A stretch of 64,000 nt of DNA from Spirochaetales bacterium (GTDB lineage Bacteria > Spirochaetota > Leptospiria > Leptospirales > Leptonemataceae). Each line of letters begins with the position of its first letter. Within the stretch, counting starts at the first letter, position 1. The notes under the pieces are model-generated. The model was not told where the DNA came from, made no database searches, and saw only the letters and a program-made list of their open reading frames with translations. The DNA is taken from positions 27,096 to 91,095 of the forward strand of contig JACKOY010000017.1 of the NCBI GenBank assembly GCA_024233935.1, given 5' to 3'. Positions 29,691-43,543 of this stretch are shown one piece after another. The position numbers and the translations under genes are program-made.

Positions 29691-32600
29691 TTAAGCCGCC
29701 TCCGCATTCTTCCGAATCCCCGCAACCACGGCCAGTATTCCTTCGACCTGCGGCTTCATGAAGAGGCCGGTCACGCCTTCGGAGTGCAGATCAGTGAATG
29801 GTGCCTCAAACAGCGCCTCCGGCTCGATCGCTCCATTCTGGGTCAGGTAGTTGATAATGCGGTCCAGGAAGGCGATCTGGTCGGCGGTCAGGTTCCCTGC
29901 CGCGAGGAAGTCGGCGAAGGCGGCCTTGGCTGCCATCCTATCGAGGCCCACGATACTGCGGATAAACAGGCCGAGCGGCTGGTCGCCGATCTCGCGCTCG
30001 TAGTCCTCCCGCGTCCCAAGAGCGCCGTCCTGCGAGAATAGAATCGCTTCAAGGTGCTGAAGGTCCGTGCTCGTCAACGGCTGGTTTTGCTTCAGCTTCC
30101 AGATTGTTGTATCGTCGTGTTCCAGTCCGCGAATGAGCTTCTCCACCCGACGTCGGTAGTTTTCCAGCCCCGGTTCGCGTTTGACCAGATCATCGCGCAT
30201 GATGACCGCGCCCGCCTCGTCGGTGAAGTCGGTGTACACGAGGCGCTGTGCGGCGGCTTTATCCAGCAGTTGAACAACCTCGCGCAGCTCGGATCGAATC
30301 GCTTCAATCTTCGGAACGGTGGCCGCTTTCCAGAAGGCGTCGTCTTGAAGCGGCCGGATCGTTGGCATGCGCTTCTCGATCGCCGGGATGTTCTTTTTCA
30401 GCTCCAGATTCATCGCGAGATCGCGAACCTTTGATTCCAGGGCGTCACGTCGCGAGCCCTCCGTGAGCATTTCGATTTGCAGATTGTGGATTAAAAGATC
30501 GAAGCGGGCGGCCTCCTCACTCTGATACGGATGAGAGATCAGCGGACTTACGTGCTCGGTTAGTTCCGCGACGTCAGATTCAGCGACCTTGTCCCACGCC
30601 TTGCGATCCATATATGGTCGAACAAATTTTTGATGAGGTCGCACCACGAAGCTTTCAGGATCCAGAGCGGCGACCTCATGATGCATTTGATCGAGCAATT
30701 GGCCGGCGTACCTGCGGTGTTCCAGATCATCACGCATGGCGCTTCGACGAATTTCCAGCGCCAGTATGAGCCGGCGATTGAAGATCTTCTGAGAGAGCGA
30801 AGGCTGCGCCACGGTCTCCATGCCTTTGGGATGCGCGTCGAAGAAGTCCAGGTTCCCGCAGAAGTCGAAGATCAGGAAGTGCTCTTTGTGCTGGCCCGGG
30901 CCAAATAGGTCTTCGCAGAGGCGCGTTCCGCGTCCGACCATCTGCCAGAACTTCACACGGGAGCGCACCATCTTGAAGAATACCAGGTTCACCACCTCGG
31001 GAATGTCCACGCCGGTATCGAGCATGTCCACCGATGCCGCAATGTGGGGGTCCGAGTTCTTCTTCTCGAAGTCTTCCATGAGGGAATCGACGTACTTGAC
31101 CTGGTTGTGGACCACGCGCATGAATTTTCCGGCGAGGTGAGGGTACAGCAGGTCGAAGCGGTCGCGGACAAATTCTGCGTGCCGCTGGTTCCTGGCGAAG
31201 ATGATGGTCTTGCCCAACCGTTCCCCGCCCGCGACTTTGATGCCGTGGTCCATGACATGGGCGAGCACGCGGTCCACTGTGTCCGCGTTGAAGAGCCAGC
31301 TATTCAGTGCGGATGAGTCGATTTCTTCCGGCAGGGTCCCGGTGTCCTCGTCGAAGAACTTCTCTTCGTATTCTTCCTGCTCCTCTTCGGTCAGGTCCGC
31401 GTACTTGATGCCCTCCCGCTGGAACTTGAGCGGGACGACGGCAGCCAGCGGCGGACAGAGGTACCTGTCGTTCACGCCTTCATCAAGGCCGTAGGCGAAC
31501 GTGGGCTGGCCCTCTTCGAGTTCCAGGAACTGATAGGTGTTGCGGGAGACCTCGTCGCGTGGTGTGGCGGTCAGGCCGATGATGAGACTGTCGAAGTAGT
31601 CGAAGATGGCGCCGTACTTTTTGTAGACGGAGCGGTGGACTTCATCGAGCCAGATGAGGTCGAAGTAGCCGGGGCCGAAGCGGGCCTGCCCTCCGGTTTT
31701 GCGCTCATCAATCGCATTCATGAGCGTCGGATAGGTGGAGATGACGACGCGGCTGTTGTCGTCCTCCTTCTCATCGAGCAGGTTCACGAGCGATGCATTT
31801 GGCAGGTGCTCCTTGAACGCCTTGTATGCTTGCGTCACGAGCTTGCGACGATCGGCCAGGAAGAGGACGCGGCGGACCCAGTTCGCCTTCATGAGCAGTT
31901 CGGTGATGGCCACAGCGGTGCGGGTCTTTCCGGTACCCATGCTCATGGCGAGCAGGCAGCGGCGACGGCGTTTGGTCAGGTCTTCGGTGACGCGGCGCAC
32001 GGCTTCAATCTGATAGGGACGGTTTACGATACCCTGATTGATGTCGGCCGTGGTGAGGTCCGCGCGCGTTTGCCTGCGATTCACCGCAAGCTGGAGTTCA
32101 TCCCGGGTGAGGAAGCCCTGCACCTGCCGGGGAGGATAGGAAGCCTTCTCGTCCCAGAACCAGGTCTCGTAGCCGTTGGAGTAGAAGATGAGCGGATAGC
32201 GGTCGGTCATCTGTTCCAGGCAGCGGGCATAAAGTTCGGCCTGTCGCTCGCCTTCGCGGGGGCTCTTCTTGGTGCGCTTAACTTCGATGACCGCCAGTGG
32301 AAGGCCATCGTCGCCCCAGAGCACGTAATCGGCGTAGCCCGTCCCGTCGTTCCTTCCCGAAGAGGTCGGCATGCCACGCACTTCGTATTCGCGGACGTTG
32401 GGGCCGTGGGGGTCCCAGCCCGCTTCGCGCAGCATGAGGTCAATGAAGAGGTCGCGGGTTTCGCTCTCGTTGTGGTCGAGCTTCTCGGTCTGCGCAGAGG
32501 CCACTTTCCGGTTCTTCGCCTTCAGAGACTGAAGCTCGGCACGGTAGCGTTCGACTTCCGCGCTGACTTTCGCGAGCGCCTCCTCATGCTCACGCGCCTT

Positions 32601-33095
32601 CGCATCGCGCGCTTCCAGATCCTTCTTGAGCTTCTGGAGTTCGGCGGCGCTCTTCTCGGCGGTCCCGGTTTTGGGTATGAGGTCCGGGTTGAAGGCCGGG
32701 ATGAAGGGCGCGTAGCTGGAGTAGAGTTTGGCAAACCAGGCCAGGAAGAGGTGCAGGTGCTTGAGAAGCAGAATCGCATTCTGAGCTTGCACGCGAAAGC
32801 CCGGATGGACGGCTTGATTGCCCAGCTTGCGGATGGCATTGACCGGCTGGAAGAGCTCAGGTGGCAGCAGGCGTTCCTTGAAGGACGGTTCGTGCATCAT
32901 GGCCGCGAGCGTGCGTTCGTACGGCGGTGTGAGCGAGTTGTCGTTCTCGAAGAGCCAGGTGAGGACGGCTTCGAGAGTGTAGCGGGCGTAGAAGACCGAC
33001 GTGCGCGGGTCGGCGTAGGCACTGACCTCGGCCTTGTTGGCAGAGTCGAAGAGGCCGCCCCAGTTCTGCTGGAGGTAGTCGAAGTTGGAGTTCAT
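29691..33095 (-). CDS. hsdR: Type I restriction enzyme R subunit (EcoKI-like), with EcoEI_R_C-type C-terminal domain
   Basis: MNSNFDYLQ... EcoKI-like N-terminus. Nuclease motif: region ...DYVLWGDDGLPLAVIEVKR. DEAD-box helicase motifs GTGKTRTA and DEVH. 1134 aa. Confidence 0.9.
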   Translation of the reverse strand: MNSNFDYLQQNWGGLFDSANKAEVSAYADPRTSVFYARYTLEAVLTWLFENDNSLTPPYERTLAAMMHEPSFKERLLPPELFQPVNAIRKLGNQAVHPGFRVQAQNAILLLKHLHLFLAWFAKLYSSYAPFIPAFNPDLIPKTGTAEKSAAELQKLKKDLEARDAKAREHEEALAKVSAEVERYRAELQSLKAKNRKVASAQTEKLDHNESETRDLFIDLMLREAGWDPHGPNVREYEVRGMPTSSGRNDGTGYADYVLWGDDGLPLAVIEVKRTKKSPREGERQAELYARCLEQMTDRYPLIFYSNGYETWFWDEKASYPPRQVQGFLTRDELQLAVNRRQTRADLTTADINQGIVNRPYQIEAVRRVTEDLTKRRRRCLLAMSMGTGKTRTAVAITELLMKANWVRRVLFLADRRKLVTQAYKAFKEHLPNASLVNLLDEKEDDNSRVVISTYPTLMNAIDERKTGGQARFGPGYFDLIWLDEVHRSVYKKYGAIFDYFDSLIIGLTATPRDEVSRNTYQFLELEEGQPTFAYGLDEGVNDRYLCPPLAAVVPLKFQREGIKYADLTEEEQEEYEEKFFDEDTGTLPEEIDSSALNSWLFNADTVDRVLAHVMDHGIKVAGGERLGKTIIFARNQRHAEFVRDRFDLLYPHLAGKFMRVVHNQVKYVDSLMEDFEKKNSDPHIAASVDMLDTGVDIPEVVNLVFFKMVRSRVKFWQMVGRGTRLCEDLFGPGQHKEHFLIFDFCGNLDFFDAHPKGMETVAQPSLSQKIFNRRLILALEIRRSAMRDDLEHRRYAGQLLDQMHHEVAALDPESFVVRPHQKFVRPYMDRKAWDKVAESDVAELTEHVSPLISHPYQSEEAARFDLLIHNLQIEMLTEGSRRDALESKVRDLAMNLELKKNIPAIEKRMPTIRPLQDDAFWKAATVPKIEAIRSELREVVQLLDKAAAQRLVYTDFTDEAGAVIMRDDLVKREPGLENYRRRVEKLIRGLEHDDTTIWKLKQNQPLTSTDLQHLEAILFSQDGALGTREDYEREIGDQPLGLFIRSIVGLDRMAAKAAFADFLAAGNLTADQIAFLDRIINYLTQNGAIEPEALFEAPFTDLHSEGVTGLFMKPQVEGILAVVAGIRKNAEAA

Positions 33096-33110
33096 CTACG
33101 TTCCGGGGCG

Positions 33111-33485
33111 CTACATAACCCTTTCGCTCTTGTGCAACACTGCTGCCAGTTTCTTGTCCAGCGTCCAAACGCGCAACTGCCGACGGCGTGCCTCCGCGAG
33201 CAATACAGCGTCGACCAGACCAATACCCTTTGCGCCGAACTTTTTCTCAAAGGCAAGACGCCCGCCTTCCACAATACCCTGGTTGCTCTGGGGGTCCTGG
33301 AGAGTCTCCCAGTAGGCGGTGACAAAGTCGGCCTCGGCCGTGCTCCTGCAGCCCTGCAGCAATTCACCAAAGACGAGCGCATGGACCCGGATCTGGCCGG
33401 CTTCGATCAATTCCCGGAGCTGTGTAAACACCGGCTCTTTGCGGCGAAAGAACTCCACCCAAACGGACGTATCAACCAGAATCAC
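33111..33485 (-). CDS. vapC: PIN-domain toxin VapC
   Basis: MILVDTSVWVEFF... 124 aa. 4-nt overlap with the upstream antitoxin. Ends 15 nt before the hsdR start. Confidence 0.8.
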   Translation of the reverse strand: MILVDTSVWVEFFRRKEPVFTQLRELIEAGQIRVHALVFGELLQGCRSTAEADFVTAYWETLQDPQSNQGIVEGGRLAFEKKFGAKGIGLVDAVLLAEARRRQLRVWTLDKKLAAVLHKSERVM

Positions 33486-33700
33486 GTGACTTTCCGGTTC
33501 AAAGCCCTCACCTGCGCCGCCGTAAAGTCAGTCCGAAACTGAAGGGGCCGCCGATTCAGCTTCTCGTTCAGGCGGCGCAGCTTCGCCAGCCGCACCCATT
33601 CACCGAGCGCCAAATTCAGGGATTCCGTAATCGTTTCCCCGCCCGTATATTCCTGAACCTCACGGACCAGTTCATCCGGAAGTAGTGCGGTCACCTTCAT
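33482..33700 (-). CDS. vapB: VapB-type antitoxin (72 aa)
   Basis: MKVTALLPDELVREVQEYTGGETITESLNLALGEWVR... is typical of the small RHH/DUF2191-like VapB antitoxins. ATG at 33700 chosen (the ORF-track start at 33736 adds 12 aa). Confidence 0.6.
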   Translation of the reverse strand: MKVTALLPDELVREVQEYTGGETITESLNLALGEWVRLAKLRRLNEKLNRRPLQFRTDFTAAQVRALNRKVT

Positions 33701-33831
33701 ACTCTGGAGTATACGATAGAGCAGCGTATGCTGCAACGTCTTTTTGAGTGCGCGTGACCGTCACGGCCTCCAGCGGTAGCGCTGGTGCACGCTGATGCGA
33801 AGGTCACGCGGCCTCAAAGAAGACCGGTGCT

Positions 33832-34356
33832 TTAGTGGTTCCGATCGCGGTATTCCAGCAACCCGCGGTCGACGAGAAAAGGCTCAACTCGCAGGCTGAG
33901 CAGCTGATGAAGACCGCATGCTGAAGCGATAGACATCTTCCCTGCTCGGTCTTTGATCTCCTGAGAAATGACCGTTGGGATATCGCCTGTTTTTTTTATC
34001 TTGATAGCCATAGCAAGAATGTACGGGTCCGCTTCCTCGGGTTGGTCTGGTTTGTTGGGGTCGAGAATGTGCCGCGTCTGCGGGTGCTCCAGCACTCTCC
34101 GTACTTCCTCAAAAACCGGCTCAAATCGGGTAGCTTGCTTCTTGTATAGCCTTGCCCAGTGATAGGGAAGGAACCCAGGGTCCGTACCGCCCCGCTTCTC
34201 CAGCTCCGCCACAACCTGTGAAGGATACACCAAGGCATCACTCTGCAGCAGTTCAGTCAACCCCTGAAAGATAGCCTTCTCTCCGGCCTTGCCCACGATG
34301 GCACGTATTTCGCCAAGCGCGGATGTATCGAACACCCAGATCGCCTGACCTGCCAT
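33832..34356 (-). CDS. DUF4411-family PIN-like nuclease (predicted toxin/effector)
   Basis: 174 aa. WVFDTSAL... N-terminal acidic motif of the PIN-like DUF4411. ATG overlaps the stop of the upstream ImmA gene by 1 nt (ATGA). This pairing is recurrent inside type I restriction-modification loci. Confidence 0.65.
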   Translation of the reverse strand: MAGQAIWVFDTSALGEIRAIVGKAGEKAIFQGLTELLQSDALVYPSQVVAELEKRGGTDPGFLPYHWARLYKKQATRFEPVFEEVRRVLEHPQTRHILDPNKPDQPEEADPYILAMAIKIKKTGDIPTVISQEIKDRAGKMSIASACGLHQLLSLRVEPFLVDRGLLEYRDRNH

Positions 34357-35516
34357 CAGGCGAATTTCCCGCCCGCAGCTTCGACCGCGCGCAGGTCAGT
34401 ATGGGAGATTTTAAGATACCCCATCGCATCATCGCGGGTGATGAGTTCTTCCTTCAATGCTGCTACAAAGCCCGCAGCAACGGCCTGTCCGTATTCATCA
34501 CGGCGGATCTCGAGTCGATTCCTTCCACCGCCGCCCCCGCCACGCTTCTTCTCTTCGATATTGCGGGGGATGCTCTCGTACAGGTCCCAACGCGCCACAC
34601 CCCTGTCGATAAGACGCAGGATCGTTGCTGTTACGCTTACGTTGAGCTTGCGCGCGAGCGTGCGCGCTTGACCGTAATCCTGAATTCGTACTGTGTTTCC
34701 GCCCAGCTCCGATCGGATCGTCGCTTGCACAAGCGACCAGGGCAACAAAACGGCCGCGGCGAACCGATCACACCAACGTTCGTGCTCGTCTTCAGCTTTG
34801 GTTCGGATCTGAGCGCGACCGATATCGTGGCATGCTGAATCCGACCGTGTAAGCAAATGTCCCAATTCATGGAGCATGCTGAAGACACGGACAGTCTCCG
34901 GCCAGGCACTGCTAAACACAACCGCCGGGGCATACTCATCCCAGAGTGAAAAGCCCCTCACACCATCCGCTCCAAGCGGTAGCTGAAACGCAAGAACGCC
35001 GAGACCCTCCAGGGCTGCGCGCCAGGCCTTCACCGCAATACTATCCGACTGGAACGCCACCTGGGTTGCGTGGTCGATGCCCAACTTCTTGCGCATGCTC
35101 TCCGCAGCCGATTCGGGATCCGATGCTGAGCTAAAAACAGGAATCTCTGGTTTCTGAACCCCCAGTTCCCTGCGTGTCCAGGAGAGCGTCCCCTGAAGCC
35201 GGCGCACCTCTCGTATTTTGCTCAACTCGTTCTCGCGGAGGAACTCCCTGGTCCTCGTGATAGGGTGCCGGAACTCAATCTTGCGAGCCTCGGCACGCGG
35301 AGGTTCGGCCAGCAACAGGATAGCGGGAGGCCGGTGGAGCTGTGCGGCAAGGTCCTTGAACTTCGTGAGCCCGGGTTGCTCCGTCTCATCAATCCAGGCC
35401 TGAAGCGTTGCGGGCTCAATCTTCAGTCGAGCACACAGCTCCTCCGTGGAATAGCCTGACTTGTCTATTGCCCATTTCAATACCGCTCCGGTAACGGGGA
35501 CCGTGGTTCCTCTCAT
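34356..35516 (-). CDS. XRE-family HTH + ImmA/IrrE-type zinc metallopeptidase (DUF955)
   Basis: N-terminal HTH (GAVLKWAIDKSGYSTEELCARLKIEPATLQAW). HExxH at FSMLHELGHLL. Start placed at ATG 35516 (MRGTT...); the ORF-track start is at 35540. Confidence 0.75.
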   Translation of the reverse strand: MRGTTVPVTGAVLKWAIDKSGYSTEELCARLKIEPATLQAWIDETEQPGLTKFKDLAAQLHRPPAILLLAEPPRAEARKIEFRHPITRTREFLRENELSKIREVRRLQGTLSWTRRELGVQKPEIPVFSSASDPESAAESMRKKLGIDHATQVAFQSDSIAVKAWRAALEGLGVLAFQLPLGADGVRGFSLWDEYAPAVVFSSAWPETVRVFSMLHELGHLLTRSDSACHDIGRAQIRTKAEDEHERWCDRFAAAVLLPWSLVQATIRSELGGNTVRIQDYGQARTLARKLNVSVTATILRLIDRGVARWDLYESIPRNIEEKKRGGGGGGRNRLEIRRDEYGQAVAAGFVAALKEELITRDDAMGYLKISHTDLRAVEAAGGKFA

Positions 35517-35627
35517 AGCGCCGCCACTGCCGATTTGCATTCTTGAATTCTGTCAGCATTCATACCATCATGGACGTCTGACACGATTAACTTCATCAGG
35601 GCTGCCTGCCAACGACAGCTTTGCACA

Positions 35628-36809
35628 TTATGGACCATTGTTTTCATTGAAGTCAAGTTCTCCCTTGAAGGCGCGTTGCAGAAGAGAGTTGAAGAGGTCA
35701 TCGGAAGCCATGATTGCCTTGGCATTGCGAGACCGCACCGCCGCGAGCTTCTCGGTAGCCCGATCCCATGCGGCCTGCAATTCGGCGGGGGGAAGAATCA
35801 GCGCGACATCCTTCAGTCGACCATGGGAAATGAGAGGCTGTCCCGCCTGGCTCTTGTACTGGTTTAGGTCCAGCAGTGTTAAGAGGCGATTCAGGAAGCC
35901 GAGGCTGAACTGATCCCGATTCTCGGCGACATAGAGCGCATTGTCTGAGACCCAGCACGGGCCCGTGGCGTGATAACTATTCCCACAGTAGACGCCGACT
36001 CGCCCGAGGATCACTGTGGGCTCGCTCACAAGTGGCGTCGTCGTGTAGCCAATGATTCCGTTTCCGCCGTACACCGGCACGGGACCTTGCTCACTGAGCG
36101 TTCGATTTCGGATGCTTTCGCCAGACTTAAGTCTCAAAGACTCTGCGAACGGCCGCACTTCCCACCCCTTCGGATTCGTCACCGGGTCCCCGAACATATC
36201 CAGAAACACCGACTGGAGCAATTCATCCAGCCTGGCGATGACCTGCTTCCGCTTGCGGCGGATGGAGTCGGCCTTGTCGAGAACCGCGGCGATTCGCTTC
36301 TGGATGTCGAGGGGCGGGAGGGGGATTGGCAGCCCTTTGAGTTTGGTGCTGTTCACACCCGGCTGCGTCGAACCACTTGCCGCGCCGACCACAGCTCCCC
36401 AGTACTGCGGCGTCTGGAAGAAGTAGCTCAAGAAGCCAGGGTCCAAGCGCTGCAGGTCCGGGCGAACCCGTATAAGGTACGAGGCAAAGACGGCATCCTT
36501 GGGGCACTCCCTGATGAGAAACGATTTCCCCGTTGTGGCCCCGGTACGAGCGAAAACGATGTCGCCGGGTGCTAGCCTGTACTTCGCCACGTCTTCCCGC
36601 GAACATCGGCAGTACGGAACGCCACTCCAATCAACATGGCCATTCTGGATGTCCGTTATGCGGAGAAAGCGAGGCCCGACCTCCGCTGCCGAAGCAGACT
36701 CCGTATGTCCGTAGTCAATCTTCTCGGAAAGCTCGCTCAGGCTATGAGTAGGCCAGCTCAAGGTGTGCCCCCTTGGTCGGAATCCAAGCTCTCCATGAAA
36801 CACCGCCAT
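35628..36809 (-). CDS. hsdS: Type I restriction-modification specificity subunit, two target-recognition domains
   Basis: N-terminal ...LSWPTHSLSELSEKIDYG (HsdS opening). Central conserved spacer LPPLDIQKRIAAVLDKADSIRRKRKQ. C-terminal repeat ...LPPAELQAAWDRATEKLAAVRSRNAKA. The start is uncertain because the first 52 nt overlap the upstream gene. Confidence 0.85.
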   Translation of the reverse strand: MAVFHGELGFRPRGHTLSWPTHSLSELSEKIDYGHTESASAAEVGPRFLRITDIQNGHVDWSGVPYCRCSREDVAKYRLAPGDIVFARTGATTGKSFLIRECPKDAVFASYLIRVRPDLQRLDPGFLSYFFQTPQYWGAVVGAASGSTQPGVNSTKLKGLPIPLPPLDIQKRIAAVLDKADSIRRKRKQVIARLDELLQSVFLDMFGDPVTNPKGWEVRPFAESLRLKSGESIRNRTLSEQGPVPVYGGNGIIGYTTTPLVSEPTVILGRVGVYCGNSYHATGPCWVSDNALYVAENRDQFSLGFLNRLLTLLDLNQYKSQAGQPLISHGRLKDVALILPPAELQAAWDRATEKLAAVRSRNAKAIMASDDLFNSLLQRAFKGELDFNENNGP

Positions 36810-37396
36810 TTGCGAATGACAGGCGCAAGTCGCGACAGGATGCGGATAAGTACGAAGGTGCGATAGTTCTGATAGCTATCTCCCGCAAGCTCAAGATCGC
36901 GTGTCAGTCGTGCCTCCTTGTCTTCGTCAGTGTGCAGTGTCTCGCCGAATAGCTGGGTTTCCAGAGTTTGCCGAATCGCCTGCCCGTGAAACAAGCCAAG
37001 TTTGTAGTCCCCCGGCTCCGACTCTGGATGAATTAGAGCCGATTCTTGCAATTCCAGGATAGCTTTCCAGCGGCTCCGCAGGGCCGCGCTATGGTCCTTG
37101 ATTTCCTGCGGGAATCGACCATCCTGAATCCAATCGTCAGCTGCCGCAATCGACGTCGGCTCTTTGCGCTGATACAGGAAGCGCAGCCGCCGGAGGGTGT
37201 TGTGCAGCGATTCGGTTAGGCTAACGAGGCTTTCGTCAGCGTCGAGTGCCAACTGATATTCACCGCTAAATGTCATCCCGAACTTCTTCTTCCGCGGTGG
37301 CGTATAGTTCGCGATGATTCGGTCCTCTTCAAACTCACGGACGCGACGCAGAAACGCATCAAGGCGAAATGCTGTTTCATTGGGGCTGCGACTCAC
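36758..37396 (-). CDS. Hypothetical 212-aa protein, translationally coupled (ATGA) to the upstream GmrSD-like gene; no recognisable domain
   Basis: The ORF has coding-like composition. Its ATG overlaps the stop of the DUF262/DUF1524 gene. It is predicted soluble and charged. Its function is unknown. Confidence 0.5.
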   Translation of the reverse strand: MSRSPNETAFRLDAFLRRVREFEEDRIIANYTPPRKKKFGMTFSGEYQLALDADESLVSLTESLHNTLRRLRFLYQRKEPTSIAAADDWIQDGRFPQEIKDHSAALRSRWKAILELQESALIHPESEPGDYKLGLFHGQAIRQTLETQLFGETLHTDEDKEARLTRDLELAGDSYQNYRTFVLIRILSRLAPVIRKWRCFMESLDSDQGGTP

Positions 37397-37422
37397 TTCA
37401 ACATCCCCGCCAGTTCGTTCAG
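37391..37422. repeat. Copy A of a 32-nt direct repeat (3' end of the GmrSD-like gene); pairs with 39597..39628
   Basis: ACTCACTTCAACATCCCCGCCAGTTCGTTCAG differs from ACTCACTTCAGCATCCCCGCCAGCTCGTTCAG by 2 substitutions, both synonymous. On the minus strand both copies encode ...LNELAGMLK*. Confidence 0.8.
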
Positions 37423-39591
37423 GCGAGTTGGCCCCACCAGGTCAGAGAAGATGCGCTCCGCCCTTTGTACCACCAACGCTTTGAACCGTTCGCGGTTCTC
37501 CTCTTCAAACCAATCATGCTTATTCGTTGAGATGTTCTTCCAACCCTCCACGGTATCGGTAGCGATATGGGATGCATTCGCCAGATCGTCATCATCACAG
37601 AGTCGGTACCACTGCAACCTTCTCTTCACCGACAAATGCCGACCCTCGAACCGGAGTTTGTCGCCGGGAGCCAGGTCCTGGTCGCTTCGGTTCAGTTCTT
37701 TCGGCCATACGCGCAGATTGCCAATGCTTCCTTGCAGAAGGTATCTCATCGTAACGTCATCCCAAAAGGCCCTGGGGATGTCTCTGATCCCACGCATGTT
37801 CACACTGGCCGATGGGACAATATGATCAAGATCGTAAGGTGTGTCCTCTCGGCGCAGTTGGAAGGCCGCCGGGTCGTAACCCCCGTACCAGCGATTGATC
37901 CAGGACCGCTGAACGTAGAGCAGAGCGTCACCGGAAGACTTGAGCATTTCGCTGAAGACACTATCGCCAACAGGGCGCAGGCCAGTAGCATACTGTTCGG
38001 TTGAGAGCACCTGAAAGCCTATGCGTTCCTCGTCGTTCGTTCTTTTCAAAACTGCATCATAGATCGCTTCAAACATGCCCTCGGTTTTTGCAGGCGCGCT
38101 ACGGGCCACCCGGAAAATGGCGCGAACCAGGCTTTCCCGTGCTCTGTGTCCCCCGCGGCCAAAAAAGAAGTGCATATAGAGCGCAAGCCGTATCAGGTCA
38201 TTCCTCACCAAGTCGGGAGAGATATCTTTCCCGTACACGCAGGCACAAGCCACGTGCCAATAATGCCAGTCGAGTCTGGCCACCAACGGAATCGGGAGGC
38301 CGGGATCATCCCCACCCTTGTCCGGCGCGTACAGAATGGCATTGCGACATTGGATAAGCGACTCGGTGAAAGGTCCTTTTCTGTGGTGCCCGGCGTATAC
38401 GGCGCGCAACTGGGCAATGACCTGGTCTATATCATGCTGGTCGCCGGTGAAGATGCGGTTGTACTGCTTGCTATTGAGCGCAACTACATCGGGGGCGCGA
38501 TCCGCCGGCTCTTCCTCTTCTTCTTGTTCTTCATCGTTGCCTATCAACGATTCCGCTGCCGACCCGCTTGTGGCAGCCATTGCCAGTCGTAGAGAAAGAT
38601 GCACGATTCGCAATGGTGTCATCAGCCGACCGAATTCCCGATTCGCAAAAACCGTCCACACCATGTCGTGGAACTCGGGCCATTTCATCTTGAGGGCGGA
38701 GTAGAATAGTTCATCGGGGCCCATCACGACACCCTGAGAATTGAGGCGATTGAAAGCAGTGTTCAAGTCACCGATATTCGACAGATTGTAAACGATATGG
38801 ATCGGAATGCGCGCCTCACGCAAAACCTGAATCGCACGCGTCAATGAGCTCAGTCGTGCCCGTAGAGCTTCGACATTCTCTACGTAGCGAGAACGAAGGC
38901 TGGGATGCAGATGTTCGATTTGCAAGGGATCAAAGGGGTCGGCTTCCGAAGCATGCGCCAGCCATTCCGCAACAGGCACCGGTAGCTTGGCCGCCAACGG
39001 AAATGACCGGAGCAACATTGATCCGGAGTCTTGCTGGAAGGCGTGCCGATTGGAGAATCCGAGTGGCTCCAGCATCTCAATCTCTTTAGGATGATCGTAG
39101 GGAATAGTTCCTCCCCACGGTCGCAGGGTTGTCGTCACATAGAACGCGAGATCGCTCTCGCCATGGTCCGCTTCCCCTATATCGACCCAAAGCCTTTCAA
39201 TCGCACCCACTCTGGTATCTCGAAATCCCAACGAGACGGCAATGCTCCTTTGCTGACCGTCGAGAATGAAGACCTCTTGGCCGGTGAGCGCTCGTGAAGA
39301 GTGCGCGCTATCCCTCACAGACGATTGCAGGGAGCGAATTCGCAGGTTGCTTTCGGCGAAGTTCTCTGCGGGGCACAACAACAAGGAACCAATCGGGAAT
39401 CCTCGAAACAACGAATCCCACAGCCGCGACAGCCTGTCCTCATCCCAGACTGCATCCCTTTGAAATGCAGGCAGCTTGAGCAGTGCGTCTTCGCCGTCGT
39501 TGATTTCGGCCGCCAACTCCTGTATCCCAATGCTGGCAAGACTCTGCCGGTCCCGAAGTATTCTGGCGAGGTCAAATTCCGAACTTGTCAT
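37393..39591 (-). CDS. GmrSD-family type IV (modification-dependent) restriction endonuclease-like protein: DUF262 (ParB-like NTPase) + DUF1524 (His-Me finger nuclease)
   Basis: N-terminal LPAFQRDAVWDEDRLSRLWDSLFRGFPIGSLLL is the DUF262 signature. C-terminal DLDHIVP...GNLRVWPKELNRS is the DUF1524/HNH-like motif. 732 aa. Confidence 0.75.
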   Translation of the reverse strand: MTSSEFDLARILRDRQSLASIGIQELAAEINDGEDALLKLPAFQRDAVWDEDRLSRLWDSLFRGFPIGSLLLCPAENFAESNLRIRSLQSSVRDSAHSSRALTGQEVFILDGQQRSIAVSLGFRDTRVGAIERLWVDIGEADHGESDLAFYVTTTLRPWGGTIPYDHPKEIEMLEPLGFSNRHAFQQDSGSMLLRSFPLAAKLPVPVAEWLAHASEADPFDPLQIEHLHPSLRSRYVENVEALRARLSSLTRAIQVLREARIPIHIVYNLSNIGDLNTAFNRLNSQGVVMGPDELFYSALKMKWPEFHDMVWTVFANREFGRLMTPLRIVHLSLRLAMAATSGSAAESLIGNDEEQEEEEEPADRAPDVVALNSKQYNRIFTGDQHDIDQVIAQLRAVYAGHHRKGPFTESLIQCRNAILYAPDKGGDDPGLPIPLVARLDWHYWHVACACVYGKDISPDLVRNDLIRLALYMHFFFGRGGHRARESLVRAIFRVARSAPAKTEGMFEAIYDAVLKRTNDEERIGFQVLSTEQYATGLRPVGDSVFSEMLKSSGDALLYVQRSWINRWYGGYDPAAFQLRREDTPYDLDHIVPSASVNMRGIRDIPRAFWDDVTMRYLLQGSIGNLRVWPKELNRSDQDLAPGDKLRFEGRHLSVKRRLQWYRLCDDDDLANASHIATDTVEGWKNISTNKHDWFEEENRERFKALVVQRAERIFSDLVGPTRLNELAGMLK

Positions 39592-39596
39592 GCGTA

Positions 39597-39628
39597 ACTC
39601 ACTTCAGCATCCCCGCCAGCTCGTTCAG
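39597..39628. repeat. Copy B of the 32-nt direct repeat (3' end of hsdM)
   Basis: See copy A. It encodes the HsdM C-terminus ...KELNELAGMLK*. Confidence 0.8.
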
Positions 39629-41077
39629 CTCCTTCTGAATCTCCGCTTCCATCTTCTGGATGTCGGCGATAATCTTCTTGGGCGGGTCGTACTCGATTTC
39701 GTCATGCACGACCTCTTTGTAGCGATTCACGGACAGGTCGTAGTTGTTCTGTCGAATCTCATCCACCGGGACGAAGAAGCTCTGGTCCGTCCGTTTGCGC
39801 TTCTTCTCCCCGTCCAGATTCTGCCAGCGTTTCAGGACGTCCGGCAGGTTGTTGTTCTCGTGCTTCGAAGTATCCAGCGGAGTGCGCTTGTCATCGAGCG
39901 AGAAGCCGTCCGCCTGCATGTCGTAGAACCAGACCTGGTCCGTCCCGCCCGAGTTGGTCTTCGTGAAGATGAGGAAGGCCGTCGAGACTCCGGCGTAAGG
40001 CTTGAAGACTCCGGAAGGCATCTTCACCACCGCCTGAAGCTGATGCTCGTCGATGAGCTTTTTGCGAATCCCCACATGCGCCCGCGACGACCCGAAGAGC
40101 ACCCCGTCTGGCACAATGCAGGCACACCGTCCGCCGACTTTCAGGAGATTCAGGAATAGTGCCAGGAACAAGAGCTCCGTTTTCTTCGTCTTTACTGTCT
40201 GGAGCAGGTCTTTGGCCACCGTGGAGTAGTCGAGCGAGCCCTTGAAGGGCGGATTGGCCAGCACTACCGAGAACTGATCCCGTACCGTTGAAGCCGCCTC
40301 CGAGAGCGCGTCTTTCGAGATGATGTTCGGGTTCTCAACACCGTGCAACAGCATGTTCATCACACCGATGCGGAGCATGGTCACATCGAACTCGATGGCG
40401 TGGAACATGTCCGAGTTGAAGTGTGCCAGCTTCTTCTTGTCGTTGAACATGCCCTCGTGGTTGTCCCGCAGATACTCGCCAAAGGCGATCAGGAAGCCGA
40501 AGGTCCCGGCCGCCGGGTCGCAGACCGTGTCCTCGGGAGTCGGGGCCAGCATATCGACCATGAGGCGGATGATGTGGCGCGGAGTGCGGAACTGACCATT
40601 CTGCCCGGCCGATGCAATCTTCGAAAGCAGGTACTCGTACAGGTCTCCCTTCGTGTCGCGCCGCTCCATCGGGATCTCCGAGAGCGCGGAGACTGTTCGC
40701 TCCAGTAGATGCGGAGTGGGAATCATGAAGGTGGCGTCTTTCATGAGGCGGGCATAGCCGCTGTCTTCGTTGCCGTGCAGGTTCTTCATGAACGGGAAGA
40801 CCTCGGTGCTCATGACTTTGTACATCTCCGCCGCCTCCATGTCCTTGAAGCGGGACCAGCGGAGATGCTGCTGCTTCTTGTTGAAGACCGGGTCTTCAAT
40901 CTGGGGCTTGCCGAGAGTATTGGCCTTCTTCTCCCGCGCGGTATGGATGTCGTCCAGGCGCTTGATGAACAGGAGATACGTAATCTGTTCGATCACGGTC
41001 AACGGGTTTGAGATTCCCCCGGTCCACATGCCTTCCCAGAGGCGGTCTATCTTACTGCGGAGTTCTCCGGTGATCAT
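39599..41077 (-). CDS. hsdM: Type I restriction-modification N6-adenine DNA methyltransferase subunit
   Basis: MITGELRSKIDRLWEGMWTGGISNPLTVIEQITYLLFIKRLDD (HsdM N-domain). AdoMet motif I: DPAAGTFGFL. Motif IV: NPPF. 492 aa. Confidence 0.9.
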   Translation of the reverse strand: MITGELRSKIDRLWEGMWTGGISNPLTVIEQITYLLFIKRLDDIHTAREKKANTLGKPQIEDPVFNKKQQHLRWSRFKDMEAAEMYKVMSTEVFPFMKNLHGNEDSGYARLMKDATFMIPTPHLLERTVSALSEIPMERRDTKGDLYEYLLSKIASAGQNGQFRTPRHIIRLMVDMLAPTPEDTVCDPAAGTFGFLIAFGEYLRDNHEGMFNDKKKLAHFNSDMFHAIEFDVTMLRIGVMNMLLHGVENPNIISKDALSEAASTVRDQFSVVLANPPFKGSLDYSTVAKDLLQTVKTKKTELLFLALFLNLLKVGGRCACIVPDGVLFGSSRAHVGIRKKLIDEHQLQAVVKMPSGVFKPYAGVSTAFLIFTKTNSGGTDQVWFYDMQADGFSLDDKRTPLDTSKHENNNLPDVLKRWQNLDGEKKRKRTDQSFFVPVDEIRQNNYDLSVNRYKEVVHDEIEYDPPKKIIADIQKMEAEIQKELNELAGMLK

Positions 41078-42305: not shown

Positions 42306-43543
42306 CTCCGCTTCTTTGGGGGGTCAAGTTGTTCGAGACGCTCGCGTAGGTACTCCAGTTCGTCCTCTTCTCGAATGGCCCGGGCAAGGCGCAGCAAGGG
42401 AAAACCTTTGTTTGTAAGAATGGCCGCCCGCACCTCTTCCTCTTCGTCGCGGGCGAGTCTCAAAAGAGTCGCATCTTCGCAGCTCTCGAGGTCCTCGCGA
42501 CGCGCAAGGGCTGCGCGTACGCTGTCGTCTGTGTCAGAAGCGAGGAGCTCCAGAACCGACGGGGGGCAGTGCGGATTGCGCGCGAGCCCGGCGCGTACGT
42601 CATAGTCTTCGTCTTTTGCCAGTTGCAGAGCGAGTTCCGGCGTTAGCCTTTTCCAGCGCGCCACGGCCTGGCGCACCTCGTCGTCTTCGTGCGCACAAAG
42701 TCTCCGGAGCAGTTCCGGCCCTGGCTTGCGGGTAACCAGCGCGATGGCCCGGGCCCGGTCCGAATCGGCCAGCAGCCAGTCGAGGCTGGTTTTTTCCGGC
42801 AGGTCGGCGATCAAATAAAACTCGCGCACGATCGGTCGCGGATGCAAATGAAACCACAGGTCGTCCGGCAGGTAGTTCTGCACCTGACAATAAGGACATT
42901 TGACGAGGCGTGAGCTTCCATCGACTTCCAGAGCTCCGCCGCATTTCATACATTGCAGTACCACCGGCGTGCCGGCGGGGCCGGCCTGGACCGGTTCAAC
43001 TTCGCTGCCGGAATCTTCCGAGCGCGGTCCTTCTCCAACAATCGCCAGGGCGCCGGGACAAATCGTTTGAACCAGCTCGTCCGCAGGGCGGATCGCCAGC
43101 GGCTGCTTGCATTTTTCACAACGCAGCTCCTTTTCGGGATCGAGATTGTGCAGCGCTTCTTTGCTCAGCTCCTGACCGCAATTTGTGCAGCCGGGAGGAA
43201 CGCGACGATGCTGAATGCGAATGCCGAGACTCAAAAAGCGAATCTGACCGCCGACACGTTCGCGTCGAATCAGTGCTACCGGAAGCGTATCTTCGTCGAA
43301 GACCTGTTTCCACCAGCGCAGATCGAGATTGTTTTTGCGCCCGCAGGCGCTGCAGACAATAGAAGCTGTAAAGGCGTTGATCGGCAGCGAAGCCTGGCAA
43401 TGCCGGCACTGAGCGGCCAGACGAATTCCGAAACTCACGCGAAAGGTTCCGGCGATCTTGCCGGGGATGCTGCGATCAAGCTCATCGCGCGTACTCACCT
43501 CAAAGTCGCGAAATCCTTCCAGGTCCGTGATTTCGTTCAGCAT
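42296..43543 (-). CDS. Hypothetical protein with multiple CxxC zinc-ribbon pairs and C-terminal HEAT/LRV-like helical repeats
   Basis: At least five CxxC pairs (CRHC, CSAC, CTNC, CEKC, CMKC, CPYC). Repeated ...DEEVRAAL.../...DDSVRAALAR... units in the last 130 aa. Confidence 0.5.
   Translation of the reverse strand: MLNEITDLEGFRDFEVSTRDELDRSIPGKIAGTFRVSFGIRLAAQCRHCQASLPINAFTASIVCSACGRKNNLDLRWWKQVFDEDTLPVALIRRERVGGQIRFLSLGIRIQHRRVPPGCTNCGQELSKEALHNLDPEKELRCEKCKQPLAIRPADELVQTICPGALAIVGEGPRSEDSGSEVEPVQAGPAGTPVVLQCMKCGGALEVDGSSRLVKCPYCQVQNYLPDDLWFHLHPRPIVREFYLIADLPEKTSLDWLLADSDRARAIALVTRKPGPELLRRLCAHEDDEVRQAVARWKRLTPELALQLAKDEDYDVRAGLARNPHCPPSVLELLASDTDDSVRAALARREDLESCEDATLLRLARDEEEEVRAAILTNKGFPLLRLARAIREEDELEYLRERLEQLDPPKKRSWF

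What the first reader, a model, noticed from the sequence alone, without database searches (positions are those of the whole stretch)
37391..39628. 32-nt near-identical direct repeat at the 3' ends of hsdM and the GmrSD-like gene gives both proteins the same C-terminal nonapeptide
Copy A (37391-37422, ACTCACTTCAACATCCCCGCCAGTTCGTTCAG) and copy B (39597-39628, ACTCACTTCAGCATCCCCGCCAGCTCGTTCAG) differ at 2 positions, both synonymous. Read on the minus strand, both encode ...LNELAGMLK-stop.

HsdM and a type IV endonuclease should not share a C-terminus by descent. This looks like a junction duplication left by recombinational insertion of the [GmrSD-like + 212-aa] cassette at the very 3' end of hsdM. 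The inserted gene would have inherited the hsdM tail and its coupled downstream start.

This may mark a cassette-exchange hotspot.
Basis: seen in the sequence. Interest (0 to 1): 0.6.

Follow-up and report, generated by a model that had tools for sequence, protein, structure and literature searches.

The report
Relic hsdM end after gene insertion
A 32-base copy of the end of a restriction-system methylase gene was left behind when a second restriction gene was spliced into the operon, probably because it holds the ribosome-binding site and start codon of the next gene; similar relics occur in 11 related operons.

Summary
The repeat is real. Copies at 37391-37422 and 39597-39628 match at 30 of 32 bases, are unique in the window, and are identical in 18 independent metagenome contigs.

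Copy B is the native 3' end of hsdM. All 78 genome relatives that could be read through to their stop codon have a homologous tail, and the closest relative ends ...ELAGMLK*. Copy A is a relic of that end fused in frame to a GmrSD-family type IV restriction gene. None of 56 homologues of that gene ends this way.

The repeat brackets the GmrSD gene alone (2,206-bp period), not GmrSD plus the 212-aa gene.

Copy A holds a Shine-Dalgarno-like GGCGGGGA and the only usable start codon of the 212-aa gene, a GTG overlapping the TGA stop. It therefore most likely persists as a translation-initiation module. The shared nonapeptide looks incidental.

The same footprint, 30 to about 430 nt, occurs in 11 other loci among 145 distinct related type I loci. 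It was seen only where extra genes sit after hsdM, and the cargo varies.

GmrSD embedding and hsdM-hsdS coupling are known. I found no description of the recurrent tail relic. The recombination route is inferred, not shown.

The parts
39599..41077 (-). hsdM, type I R-M methylase subunit, 492 aa
   Evidence: Pfam N6_Mtase 8.7e-61 and HsdM_N 1.6e-15. Relatives at 55-88% identity.
39597..39628 (-). Copy B (R1): the native last 9 codons of hsdM, the TGA stop and 2 further bases. It contains the SD-like GGCGGGGA and a GTG overlapping the stop (GTGA).
   Evidence: The 78 related loci readable through to the stop have a homologous tail; several end ...ELEGMLK* with gggatgctgaagtga, and 102 of 158 loci show an NTGA stop/start overlap.
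39588..39602 (-). Vestigial coupled start. GTG AGT TAC GCA TGA is a 4-codon mini-ORF that starts in the hsdM GTGA and stops in an ATGA overlapping the GmrSD ATG. The hsdM stop and the GmrSD ATG are 7 nt apart.
   Evidence: Read directly from the sequence. Whether it functions is an inference.
37393..39591 (-). GmrSD-family (DUF262 plus His-Me finger) type IV restriction-like gene, 732 aa. The last 9 codons and the stop are hsdM-derived.
   Evidence: Pfam GmrSD_N 4.7e-19. Invariant Q44-R45, DGQQR 111-115, D589-H590, N625, N634. AF2 model pLDDT 84.9; top PDB fold match is BrxU at E 2.5e-11. PADLOC HEC-05. No homologue shares the tail.
37391..37422 (-). Copy A (R2): relic of the hsdM 3' end. It supplies the C-terminal nonapeptide and stop of GmrSD, plus the SD-like motif and GTG start of the 212-aa gene.
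   Evidence: 30/32 identity to copy B. The GTG at 37396-37394 is the first possible start after an in-frame stop and the only canonical start before codon 41. Anti-SD pairing is -5.7 kcal/mol, the same as copy B.
36758..37396 (-). 212-aa gene of unknown function, a Leptospiraceae-specific family, translated from the GTG inside copy A through a 6-codon leader (VSRSPNE).
   Evidence: Only one other family representative among 1.84 billion (P0059, Leptonema illini, 36% identity), and it is not in an R-M locus. The alignment starts at residue ~7. The AF2 model is helical at pLDDT 60.7 and is not usable.
35628..36761 (-). hsdS specificity subunit. The likely start is TTG 36761-36759, overlapping the 212-aa gene's stop (TTGA), preceded by AAGGGGG. 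The longest ORF starts at 36809.
   Evidence: Pfam Methylase_S 9.8e-23. The junction was read. The N-terminus (M)SWP matches the HsdS starts of relatives.
33832..35540 (-). Second embedded pair between hsdS and hsdR: an HTH plus IrrE/M78 peptidase protein (394 aa) and a DUF4411 protein (174 aa), joined by an ATGA overlap.
   Evidence: Pfam Peptidase_M78 4.2e-12 and DUF4411 3.1e-4 (below its cut-off). PADLOC RmrA 6.1e-22.
29691..33095 (-). hsdR restriction subunit, 1134 aa
   Evidence: Pfam ResIII, HSDR_N, Helicase_C and EcoEI_R_C.

Best explanation
Copy B is the ordinary 3' end of hsdM. In this HsdM subfamily the last ~20-30 nt of the coding sequence also serve as the translation-initiation region of the next gene. 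They contain a Shine-Dalgarno-like G-rich run and an ATG or GTG that overlaps the TGA stop.

Proposed history (inferred): before the event, hsdM was followed directly by the 212-aa gene, which had no start codon of its own and used the hsdM GTGA. A GmrSD-family type IV restriction gene was then spliced between them. One junction lies 2 nt after the hsdM stop. The other lies inside the GmrSD reading frame, about 10 codons before its native end, and joins it in frame to the last 9 codons of an hsdM copy. hsdM therefore stays intact. GmrSD now ends in LNELAGMLK at a GTGA, and the 212-aa gene keeps its SD and start. The chain hsdM-GmrSD-212-hsdS remains linked by stop/start overlaps.

What is shown:
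- the hsdM origin of copy A;
- that the repeat brackets GmrSD alone;
- that the 212-aa gene depends on copy A for a start codon;
- that the footprint recurs in related loci.

What is inferred:
- that copy A is retained by selection for translation of downstream genes;
- the route. I favour one homologous crossover in hsdM plus one illegitimate crossover, either between two related type I loci or between incoming DNA and the resident locus (homology-facilitated illegitimate recombination).

The shared peptide is a by-product of an in-frame junction.
For: Origin of the tail:
- The tail is native to HsdM. The closest relative ends ELAGMLK* with the same last 26 nt as copy A, and several others end ELEGMLK* with gggatgctgaagtga.
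- No GmrSD homologue has it. Their homology runs to ...RAERIFSDLVGPTR and then diverges.

Function of the tail:
- The window -18 to -4 before the overlapping start pairs with the anti-SD at a median of -6.4 kcal/mol, against -2.2 for internal hsdM windows (p 6e-31). 102 of 158 loci have an NTGA overlap.
- The 212-aa ORF has no other start, and its homologue aligns only from residue ~7.

Recurrence:
- Direct downstream copies of the hsdM tail occur in L040, L043, L079, L085, L088, L096, L105, L128, L146, L162 and L168.
- Each copy ends at a TGA that overlaps the next gene's ATG or GTG.
- Control segments from elsewhere in hsdM gave only 14-25 nt chance hits, apart from L146/L147/L149, where the ~430-nt hsdM fragment also spans one control segment.
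- Tail copies occur in 0 of 90 loci with adjacent hsdS and in 7 of 24 with genes in between (Fisher p 8e-6).
- Cargo differs between loci.

Peptide is incidental:
- Cargo reads through the tail in only 3 of 12 junctions (WIN, L040 second copy, L088), about the 1/3 expected for random frames.

Foreign origin of the embedded genes:
- GC3 of the embedded genes is 0.61-0.64, against 0.82 for hsdM and 0.77 for hsdR.

Two-parent origin:
- In L040, L043, L162 and L168, copy 2 is closer to the hsdM tail of another genome than to the resident hsdM.
Against: - No empty-site relative was found, so the pre-insertion state is inferred.
- Translation from the GTG in copy A and coupling to GmrSD termination are untested.
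- The SD-like motif in this locus is only moderate (-5.7 kcal/mol).
- For WIN the origin test is a tie. Copy A is 2 mismatches from its own hsdM and 2 from the L105 hsdM, so in-situ duplication and a two-parent origin cannot be told apart.
- In 5 of 12 cases copy 2 is closest to its own hsdM.
- Of the 24 related loci with hsdS more than 150 nt downstream, 17 have no detectable tail copy, so the relic is not obligatory.
- The 30-32-nt left boundary falls at nearly the same codon in WIN and L079. This could hint at something more site-specific than random breakage.
Confidence: 0.7

Rival explanations
1. A two-gene cassette (GmrSD plus the 212-aa gene) inserted at the 3' end of hsdM, and the 32-nt repeat is the junction duplication of that cassette.
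For: GmrSD and the 212-aa gene have similar GC3 (0.62 and 0.61), lower than hsdM. They always occur together in the 18 population contigs.
Against: Copy A lies between GmrSD and the 212-aa gene, so the repeats flank GmrSD alone. There is no third copy at the 212/hsdS junction. The 212-aa gene needs copy A's GTG. The 212-aa family is otherwise a stand-alone Leptonema gene. The nearest GmrSD homologue, and three others checked, have no 212-aa neighbour.
Confidence: 0.08
2. The hsdM tail is an att-like site of a recombinase-free or trans-acting cassette system. Cargo plus tail excises as a circle by recombination between the repeats and re-integrates into any related hsdM tail, giving integron-like cassette exchange.
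For: Direct repeats flank diverse cargo in 12 loci. Arrays with 2-3 relics occur in L040 and L096. WIN and L079 share nearly the same 30-32-nt boundaries. Long repeat pairs are uniformly 91-96% identical, and only the 30-nt pair is perfect. That pattern fits loss of perfect long repeats by recombination.
Against: Repeat length ranges from 30 to about 430 nt with variable inner boundaries. No integrase or recombinase gene was found in the cargo proteins scanned (Pfam). No excised or empty form and no hybrid repeat was seen among 18 population contigs. The two mismatches cut the WIN repeat into identical blocks of 8, 12 and 10 nt. From my own knowledge, that is below the ~25 nt usually needed for RecA-dependent exchange.
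Confidence: 0.12
3. The shared nonapeptide is functional at the protein level. It mimics the HsdM C-terminal helix and docks the GmrSD enzyme onto HsdS or the methylase complex.
For: Both DNA differences are synonymous. Residues 724-731 are predicted as a short terminal helix set off by GPTR. In L088 a cargo protein carries at least 38 residues of the HsdM tail.
Against: Two synonymous transitions are expected by chance about 17% of the time. Only 3 of 12 junctions put the tail in the cargo's frame. Nine residues is very short for an interface. GmrSD relatives work in other contexts without it.
Confidence: 0.05
4. Chance similarity or assembly chimera.
For: None beyond the shortness of the repeat.
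Against: 0 of 100 shuffles give a match. The within-locus blastn-short E-value is 7e-9. The structure is identical in 18 contigs from different assemblers and samples.
Confidence: 0.01

Closest known systems
Type I-embedded GmrSD-like restriction genes (TgvAB in Vibrio cholerae VPI-2, RloF in Campylobacter jejuni, BrxU/HEC-05)
   Same: A DUF262 plus His-Me-finger type IV restriction gene sits inside a type I R-M operon. This is described as frequent (PMC11411939, which cites Machnicka et al. and Payne et al.). The fold and motifs match BrxU.
   Different: TgvAB needs two DUF262 proteins and lies between hsdR and hsdS. Here there is a single fused GmrSD between hsdM and hsdS, and its neighbour, the 212-aa protein, has no DUF262. 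The word 'repeat' does not occur in PMC11411939, and nothing in the passages I read mentions an hsdM-derived tail.
Translational coupling of hsdM and hsdS by overlapping stop and start (EcoKI)
   Same: The 3' end of hsdM overlaps the start of the next gene and the two are translationally coupled (PMC3510504 abstract). GTGA and TTGA overlaps link GmrSD to the 212-aa gene and the 212-aa gene to hsdS, and hsdM and GmrSD are separated by 7 nt.
   Different: Here the coupling module has been duplicated and re-used for a non-hsd gene. Coupling itself was not measured.
attL/attR duplication of a gene's 3' end by integrative elements (for example tRNA-gene targets). This comparison is from my own knowledge.
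   Same: The insert is flanked by direct repeats that reconstitute the 3' end of the target gene, so the gene stays intact.
   Different: There is no integrase, the repeat length varies, and the second copy is functional for the downstream gene rather than inert.
Homology-facilitated illegitimate recombination (de Vries & Wackernagel 2002; Prudhomme et al. 2002). Cited from memory, not retrieved here.
   Same: One homologous anchor (hsdM) plus one illegitimate joint would give a cargo insertion with a variable-length duplication of recipient sequence. It would also explain tail copies that resemble another genome's hsdM.
   Different: This is a process, not a family. Nothing here demonstrates it, and my paper search for it returned nothing useful.
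Transposon target-site duplication
   Same: Short direct repeats flank an insertion.
   Different: There is no transposase, no terminal inverted repeats, and no fixed length. 32 nt is far longer than typical target-site duplications.

Membership tests
Type I restriction-modification system | HsdM with an N6-adenine methylase domain and the HsdM N-terminal domain | tested here: met
   Pfam N6_Mtase 8.7e-61 and HsdM_N 1.6e-15.
Type I restriction-modification system | HsdS specificity subunit and HsdR helicase-nuclease in the same operon | tested here: met
   Methylase_S 9.8e-23. HsdR has HSDR_N, ResIII, Helicase_C and EcoEI_R_C. All are on the minus strand.
Type I restriction-modification system | ATP-dependent restriction and sequence-specific methylation | not testable with these tools
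   Requires enzymology or methylome data.
GmrSD-family type IV restriction enzyme | N-terminal DUF262 domain with QR, DGQQR and FxxxN motifs | tested here: met
   Pfam GmrSD_N 4.7e-19. Invariant Q44 R45, D111-R115, F280 and N284 in a 28-sequence alignment.
GmrSD-family type IV restriction enzyme | C-terminal DUF1524 His-Me finger nuclease | tested here: inconclusive
   The Pfam DUF1524 model did not hit at E<=0.01. However, D589-H590, N625 and N634 are invariant, and the full-length model aligns to BrxU (7p9k_A, E 2.5e-11, prob 1.0) and SspE.
GmrSD-family type IV restriction enzyme | Modification-dependent DNA cleavage | not testable with these tools
   Requires biochemistry or phage assays.
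TgvAB two-protein GmrSD-like system | A second, separate DUF262 protein encoded next to the GmrSD-like protein | tested here: not met
   The 212-aa neighbour has no Pfam or PADLOC hit, and its only homologues are Leptospiraceae hypothetical proteins.
Transposable element with target-site duplication | Transposase, terminal inverted repeats and a fixed-length duplication | tested here: not met
   No transposase domain lies between the repeats. No flanking inverted repeat was found. Repeat length ranges from 30 to about 430 nt across loci.
Integron or integrative-element cassette | Site-specific recombinase and a defined att site | tested here: not met
   No integrase was found among the locus proteins scanned. 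There are no tRNA genes in the window. No excised form was seen in 18 contigs.
Phase-variable type I locus (hsdS shufflon) | Extra partial hsdS copies and inverted repeats with a recombinase | tested here: not met
   There is a single hsdS. No inverted repeat with high complementarity was reported in hsdS.
Translationally coupled gene pair (stop/start overlap) | Overlapping stop and start with an upstream SD inside the preceding ORF | tested here: met
   GTGA at 37396-37393 with GGCGGGGA 7 nt upstream, and TTGA at 36761-36758 with AAGGGGG. Actual coupling was not measured.

The most novel reading that the evidence does not exclude
The hsdM/hsdS junction of this widespread type I subfamily is a genuine recombinase-free gene-capture platform. 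Related type I loci would trade or capture defence and toxin-antitoxin genes by a homologous crossover in hsdM plus an illegitimate joint. Each capture would leave an hsdM-tail relic that serves as a ready-made ribosome-binding and start module for the displaced gene. The relics (up to three per locus) would record the order of captures and provide homology for later shuffling or loss.
Probability: 0.3. Interest if true: 0.65.

Novelty: new variant of a known kind. Interest (0 to 1): 0.5.

Why it matters
Defence genes embedded inside restriction-modification operons are well documented, but how they get in without breaking the operon is not. This footprint suggests a simple rule. An insertion behind hsdM survives when the last 30 or more nucleotides of hsdM are duplicated, because those nucleotides are both the end of an essential subunit and the ribosome-binding site and start of the next gene. 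If that is general, hsdM-tail relics would give three things:
- a cheap computational marker for embedded and possibly novel defence genes;
- a way to order insertion events;
- a design hint for engineering genes into coupled operons.

For annotation, it also warns that the C-terminal peptide shared by HsdM and the GmrSD protein does not indicate a shared domain or a shared function.

Tried and rejected
- **Two hsdS alleles.** I first thought the population carried two alleles (377 and 393 aa). L001 is 100% identical to the window over 8,200 nt, so these are only different gene-caller start choices. Retracted.
- **Empty site.** All 18 contigs carrying the GmrSD or 212-aa protein have the same structure. 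The closest HsdM relative (P0061, 88%) has a different insertion. P0136 (77%) is a truncated hsdM followed by hsdR.
- **The 212-aa protein.** Word-index and exhaustive HMMER searches give one homologue family only. The AF2 model has pLDDT 60.7, too low to justify a fold search. Pfam and PADLOC gave no hit.
- **Homology between the WIN 212-aa and L105 162-aa genes.** None was detected.
- **Literature.** Three searches found no description of hsdM tail duplication. The search for homology-facilitated illegitimate recombination was badly targeted and useless.
- **Promoter and terminator scan.** Uninformative: 3 promoter-like sites against 3.3 expected, none in front of GmrSD.
- **Copy 2 always closer to a foreign hsdM.** Equal-length comparison shows this in only 3 of the 11 cases that could be compared (a fourth, L162, is supported only by the blast comparison), with ties or own-closest in the rest. 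I softened the claim accordingly.
- **Synonymous differences as evidence for selection on the peptide.** Rejected, because the chance probability is about 0.17.
Full report
**Observation**

They match at 30 of 32 bases, and identity collapses immediately outside them. With up to three mismatches they are the only matches in the window on either strand, and none appeared in 100 dinucleotide-preserving shuffles.

On the minus strand both encode LNELAGMLK followed by TGA. Both differences are synonymous transitions, but that outcome has a chance probability of about 0.17 and carries little weight.

The structure is present in 18 contigs from several ENA and Logan assemblies. The 11 contigs that contain both copies show the same two differences, and the other 7 carry copy A in the same flanks. 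No empty site and no hybrid repeat was seen. It is therefore neither chance nor an assembly artefact.

The source is a Leptospiraceae/Spirochaetales MAG.

**Anatomy of the locus**

All genes lie on the minus strand:

| Gene | Coordinates | Notes |
|---|---|---|
| hsdM | 41077-39599 | 7 nt before the next ATG |
| GmrSD-like gene | 39591-37393 | 732 aa |
| 212-aa gene | 37396-36758 | GTGA overlap with the GmrSD stop |
| hsdS | likely TTG at 36761, to 35628 | TTGA overlap with the 212-aa gene's stop |
| HTH-IrrE/M78 protein and DUF4411 protein | 35540-33832 | ATGA overlap between the two |
| small ORF and PIN gene | 33736-33111 | |
| hsdR | 33095-29691 | |

The 732-aa protein has the DUF262 domain with invariant QR, DGQQR and FxxxN residues, and invariant D589-H590, N625 and N634. 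Its model is confident (pLDDT 84.9), and the best PDB matches are BrxU and SspE. It is a GmrSD-family enzyme by fold and motifs, although the Pfam DUF1524 model itself did not hit.

**Whose tail is it?**

I fetched 80 genome loci encoding HsdM relatives at 55-67% identity, from many phyla. The 78 that could be read through to the stop have a homologous C-terminal helix. Several end ...ELEGMLK* with the DNA gggatgctgaagtga, and the stop usually overlaps the ATG or GTG of the next gene.

The closest relative (P0061, 88% identity, locus L105) ends ...ELAGMLK*, and its last 26 nt are identical to copy A.

None of the 56 homologues of the GmrSD-like protein ends this way. In the alignment, homology runs to ...RAERIFSDLVGPTR and then the homologues continue with about 10 unrelated residues. 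Four relatives examined in context carry no hsdM-like tail: one sits after hsdR, one lies near an hsdR, one lies between a DUF1156 methylase and an SNF2 helicase, and one stands alone.

**What the repeat brackets**

Copy A lies between GmrSD and the 212-aa gene. The repeated unit (period 2,206 bp) therefore contains GmrSD only.

The 212-aa gene is not part of it, and it depends on copy A:
- The GTG in copy A's GTGA is the first start codon after an in-frame stop, and the only canonical one before codon 41.
- The only homologue family (Leptonema illini H2CER7, 36% identity, in a non-R-M context) aligns from its own Met to residue ~7 of the window protein. VSRSPNE is therefore an added leader.

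The most economical history is hsdM-(GTGA)-212-hsdS first, with GmrSD inserted afterwards.

**Why a copy of the tail is kept**

Across 158 related loci I measured pairing to the 16S anti-SD in the window -18 to -4 before the overlapping start.

| Measure | hsdM tail | Internal hsdM windows |
|---|---|---|
| Median pairing energy | -6.4 kcal/mol | -2.2 kcal/mol |
| Windows at or below -6 kcal/mol | 54% | 9% |

The difference has p 6e-31, and 102 loci have an NTGA overlap. Both WIN copies score -5.7 kcal/mol through GGCGGGGA.

Translational coupling of hsdM and hsdS through an overlapping stop and start is established for EcoKI (PMC3510504).

The end of hsdM is thus simultaneously the C-terminus of an essential subunit and the initiation region of the next gene. 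Any insertion that preserves both must duplicate it. That this is the reason for retention is an inference.

**Recurrence**

I searched the last 150 nt of each hsdM against its own locus. This found direct downstream copies in 11 further loci:

| Locus | Tail copy | Cargo |
|---|---|---|
| L105 | 67 nt, 94% | two small unknown ORFs |
| L040 | 53 and 47 nt | DUF3800 and a 104-aa ORF |
| L043 | 62 nt, 92% | YhcG/DUF1016 |
| L079 | 30 nt, 100% | YhcG/DUF1016 |
| L085 | 65 nt, 92% | MazE-like plus PIN |
| L088 | at least 115 nt, 96% | unknown 265-aa protein |
| L096 | 70 nt, plus two weaker relics | FitA-like antitoxin, Phd plus PIN, and others |
| L128 | 103 nt, 91% | IS200-like transposase |
| L162 and L168 | 98 and 86 nt, 93% | PIN, a 236-aa ORF, a Schlafen/AlbA_2 protein |
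| L146 | ~430-nt hsdM fragment covering residues 358-491 | antitoxin- and PIN-like ORFs (by eye, not scanned) |

Three control segments from elsewhere in each hsdM gave only 14-25 nt chance hits. The exception is L146/L147/L149, where one control segment falls inside the ~430-nt duplicated hsdM fragment.

Every copy is direct and downstream, and each ends at a TGA overlapping the next gene's ATG or GTG.

Among 143 distinct related loci, none of the 90 with hsdS adjacent has a tail copy. Seven of the 24 with hsdS more than 150 nt away have one (Fisher p 8e-6). Three more cases sit on contigs too short to reach hsdS. Seventeen of those 24 loci lack a detectable copy, so the relic is common but not obligatory.

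**Peptide or nucleic acid?**

The cargo ORF reads through the tail to the shared stop in only three junctions: WIN, the second L040 copy and L088. Elsewhere the cargo stops before the tail, or at its edge. That is roughly the one-in-three expected from random junction frames.

The common nonapeptide of HsdM and GmrSD therefore looks like a by-product. In the GmrSD model it forms a short terminal helix (residues 724-731) after a break at GPTR.

**Route of insertion (inferred)**

Several features argue against transposition or site-specific recombination:
- the inner boundaries vary from 30 to about 430 nt;
- the outer boundary is fixed at the hsdM stop;
- no transposase, integrase or inverted repeats are present.

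In L040, L043, L162 and L168, copy 2 is closer to the hsdM tail of a different genome than to the resident hsdM. In L043 the last 16 nt of copy 2 encode ELEGMLG*, while the resident hsdM ends ELDALLK*. This fits recombination between two related type I loci, with a homologous crossover in hsdM and one illegitimate joint.

In five cases copy 2 is closest to its own hsdM, and in WIN the comparison is a tie. In-situ duplication is therefore not excluded.

WIN copy A shares CTGAAC with its own hsdM and GAA...TTG with the L105 hsdM. The two differences are thus derived changes in copy B, or they reflect a slightly different donor allele.

All long repeat pairs are 91-96% identical, and only the 30-nt pair is perfect. 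The two WIN mismatches leave identical blocks of 8, 12 and 10 nt. I read this as either inter-allelic divergence or survivorship of repeats too divergent to recombine. That reading is speculation.

The embedded genes have GC3 of 0.61-0.64, against 0.82 for hsdM and 0.77 for hsdR, so they have a different history from the hsd core.

**Comparison with what is known**

GmrSD-like genes embedded in type I loci are documented: TgvAB in Vibrio cholerae, RloF, and the survey by Machnicka et al. (PMC11411939). hsdM-hsdS coupling is also known (PMC3510504).

The present gene is a single-protein GmrSD, not a TgvAB pair.

I found no paper describing hsdM-tail relics next to embedded genes. The library is incomplete, so I cannot exclude prior mention.

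**Verdict**

- It is wrong about the cassette boundary, and its claim of cassette exchange is unsupported.
- The individual case is a modest evolutionary scar.
- The recurrent, functionally explicable footprint across phyla is the more interesting result.

Noticed in passing
window 39588-39602 (minus strand): After the hsdM stop, the vestigial GTG opens a 4-codon mini-ORF (GTG AGT TAC GCA TGA). Its stop overlaps the GmrSD ATG (ATGA). This may act as a relay for re-initiation, or it may be a coincidence.
   Followed up: partly
window 36758-36809: Gene callers give hsdS as 377 or 393 aa on identical DNA. The likely start is a TTG overlapping the 212-aa gene's stop (TTGA), preceded by AAGGGGG. 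The 393-aa ORF would overlap the 212-aa gene by 52 nt.
   Followed up: yes
window 29691-41077: GC3 separates the hsd core (hsdM 0.82, hsdR 0.77, hsdS 0.70) from all embedded genes (0.61-0.64) and from some flanking host genes (0.64-0.66). The embedded genes look more host-like than the hsd genes do.
   Followed up: partly
window 33111-35540: A second embedded block lies between hsdS and hsdR: an HTH-IrrE/M78 protein (PADLOC RmrA-like) with a DUF4411 protein, then a small ORF plus a PIN protein. I found no hsd-derived repeat at these junctions.
   Followed up: partly
window 42501-42691: Three direct repeats spaced 78 nt apart (66-71% identity) lie inside the 415-aa ORF. That ORF has faint LRV/HEAT-type repeat hits, so these are probably protein-repeat units.
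   Followed up: no
L040 6301-7629 (same as L122): This locus has three hsdM-tail copies in series: hsdM, then DUF3800, a tail, a 104-aa ORF ending in a tail, then hsdS. The two relics end ...GLLK* while the resident hsdM ends ...GLLG*. The first relic is closer to the hsdM tail of L047 than to its own.
   Followed up: partly
L146 8400-9470 (same as L147, L149); compare L054: The resident hsdM has an aberrant C-terminus (...PADTHAPAN*). A ~430-nt fragment carrying the normal hsdM end sits downstream of an antitoxin/PIN-like pair, directly in front of hsdS. L054 ends similarly (...DTLAPAN*) but showed no detectable copy.
   Followed up: partly
L128 1846-3099: An IS200-like Y1 transposase gene is the cargo between hsdM and a 103-nt tail copy. 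IS200/IS605 elements are not known (from my own knowledge) to make such duplications.
   Followed up: no
L105 5611-6831: In the closest relative, both the first cargo gene and the 162-aa gene after the tail copy start at GTGAGT, as the 212-aa gene does here. The 162-aa and 212-aa proteins show no detectable similarity, yet the ~25 nt before hsdS (AAGGGG...NTGA.CTGGCC) look alike in the two loci.
   Followed up: partly
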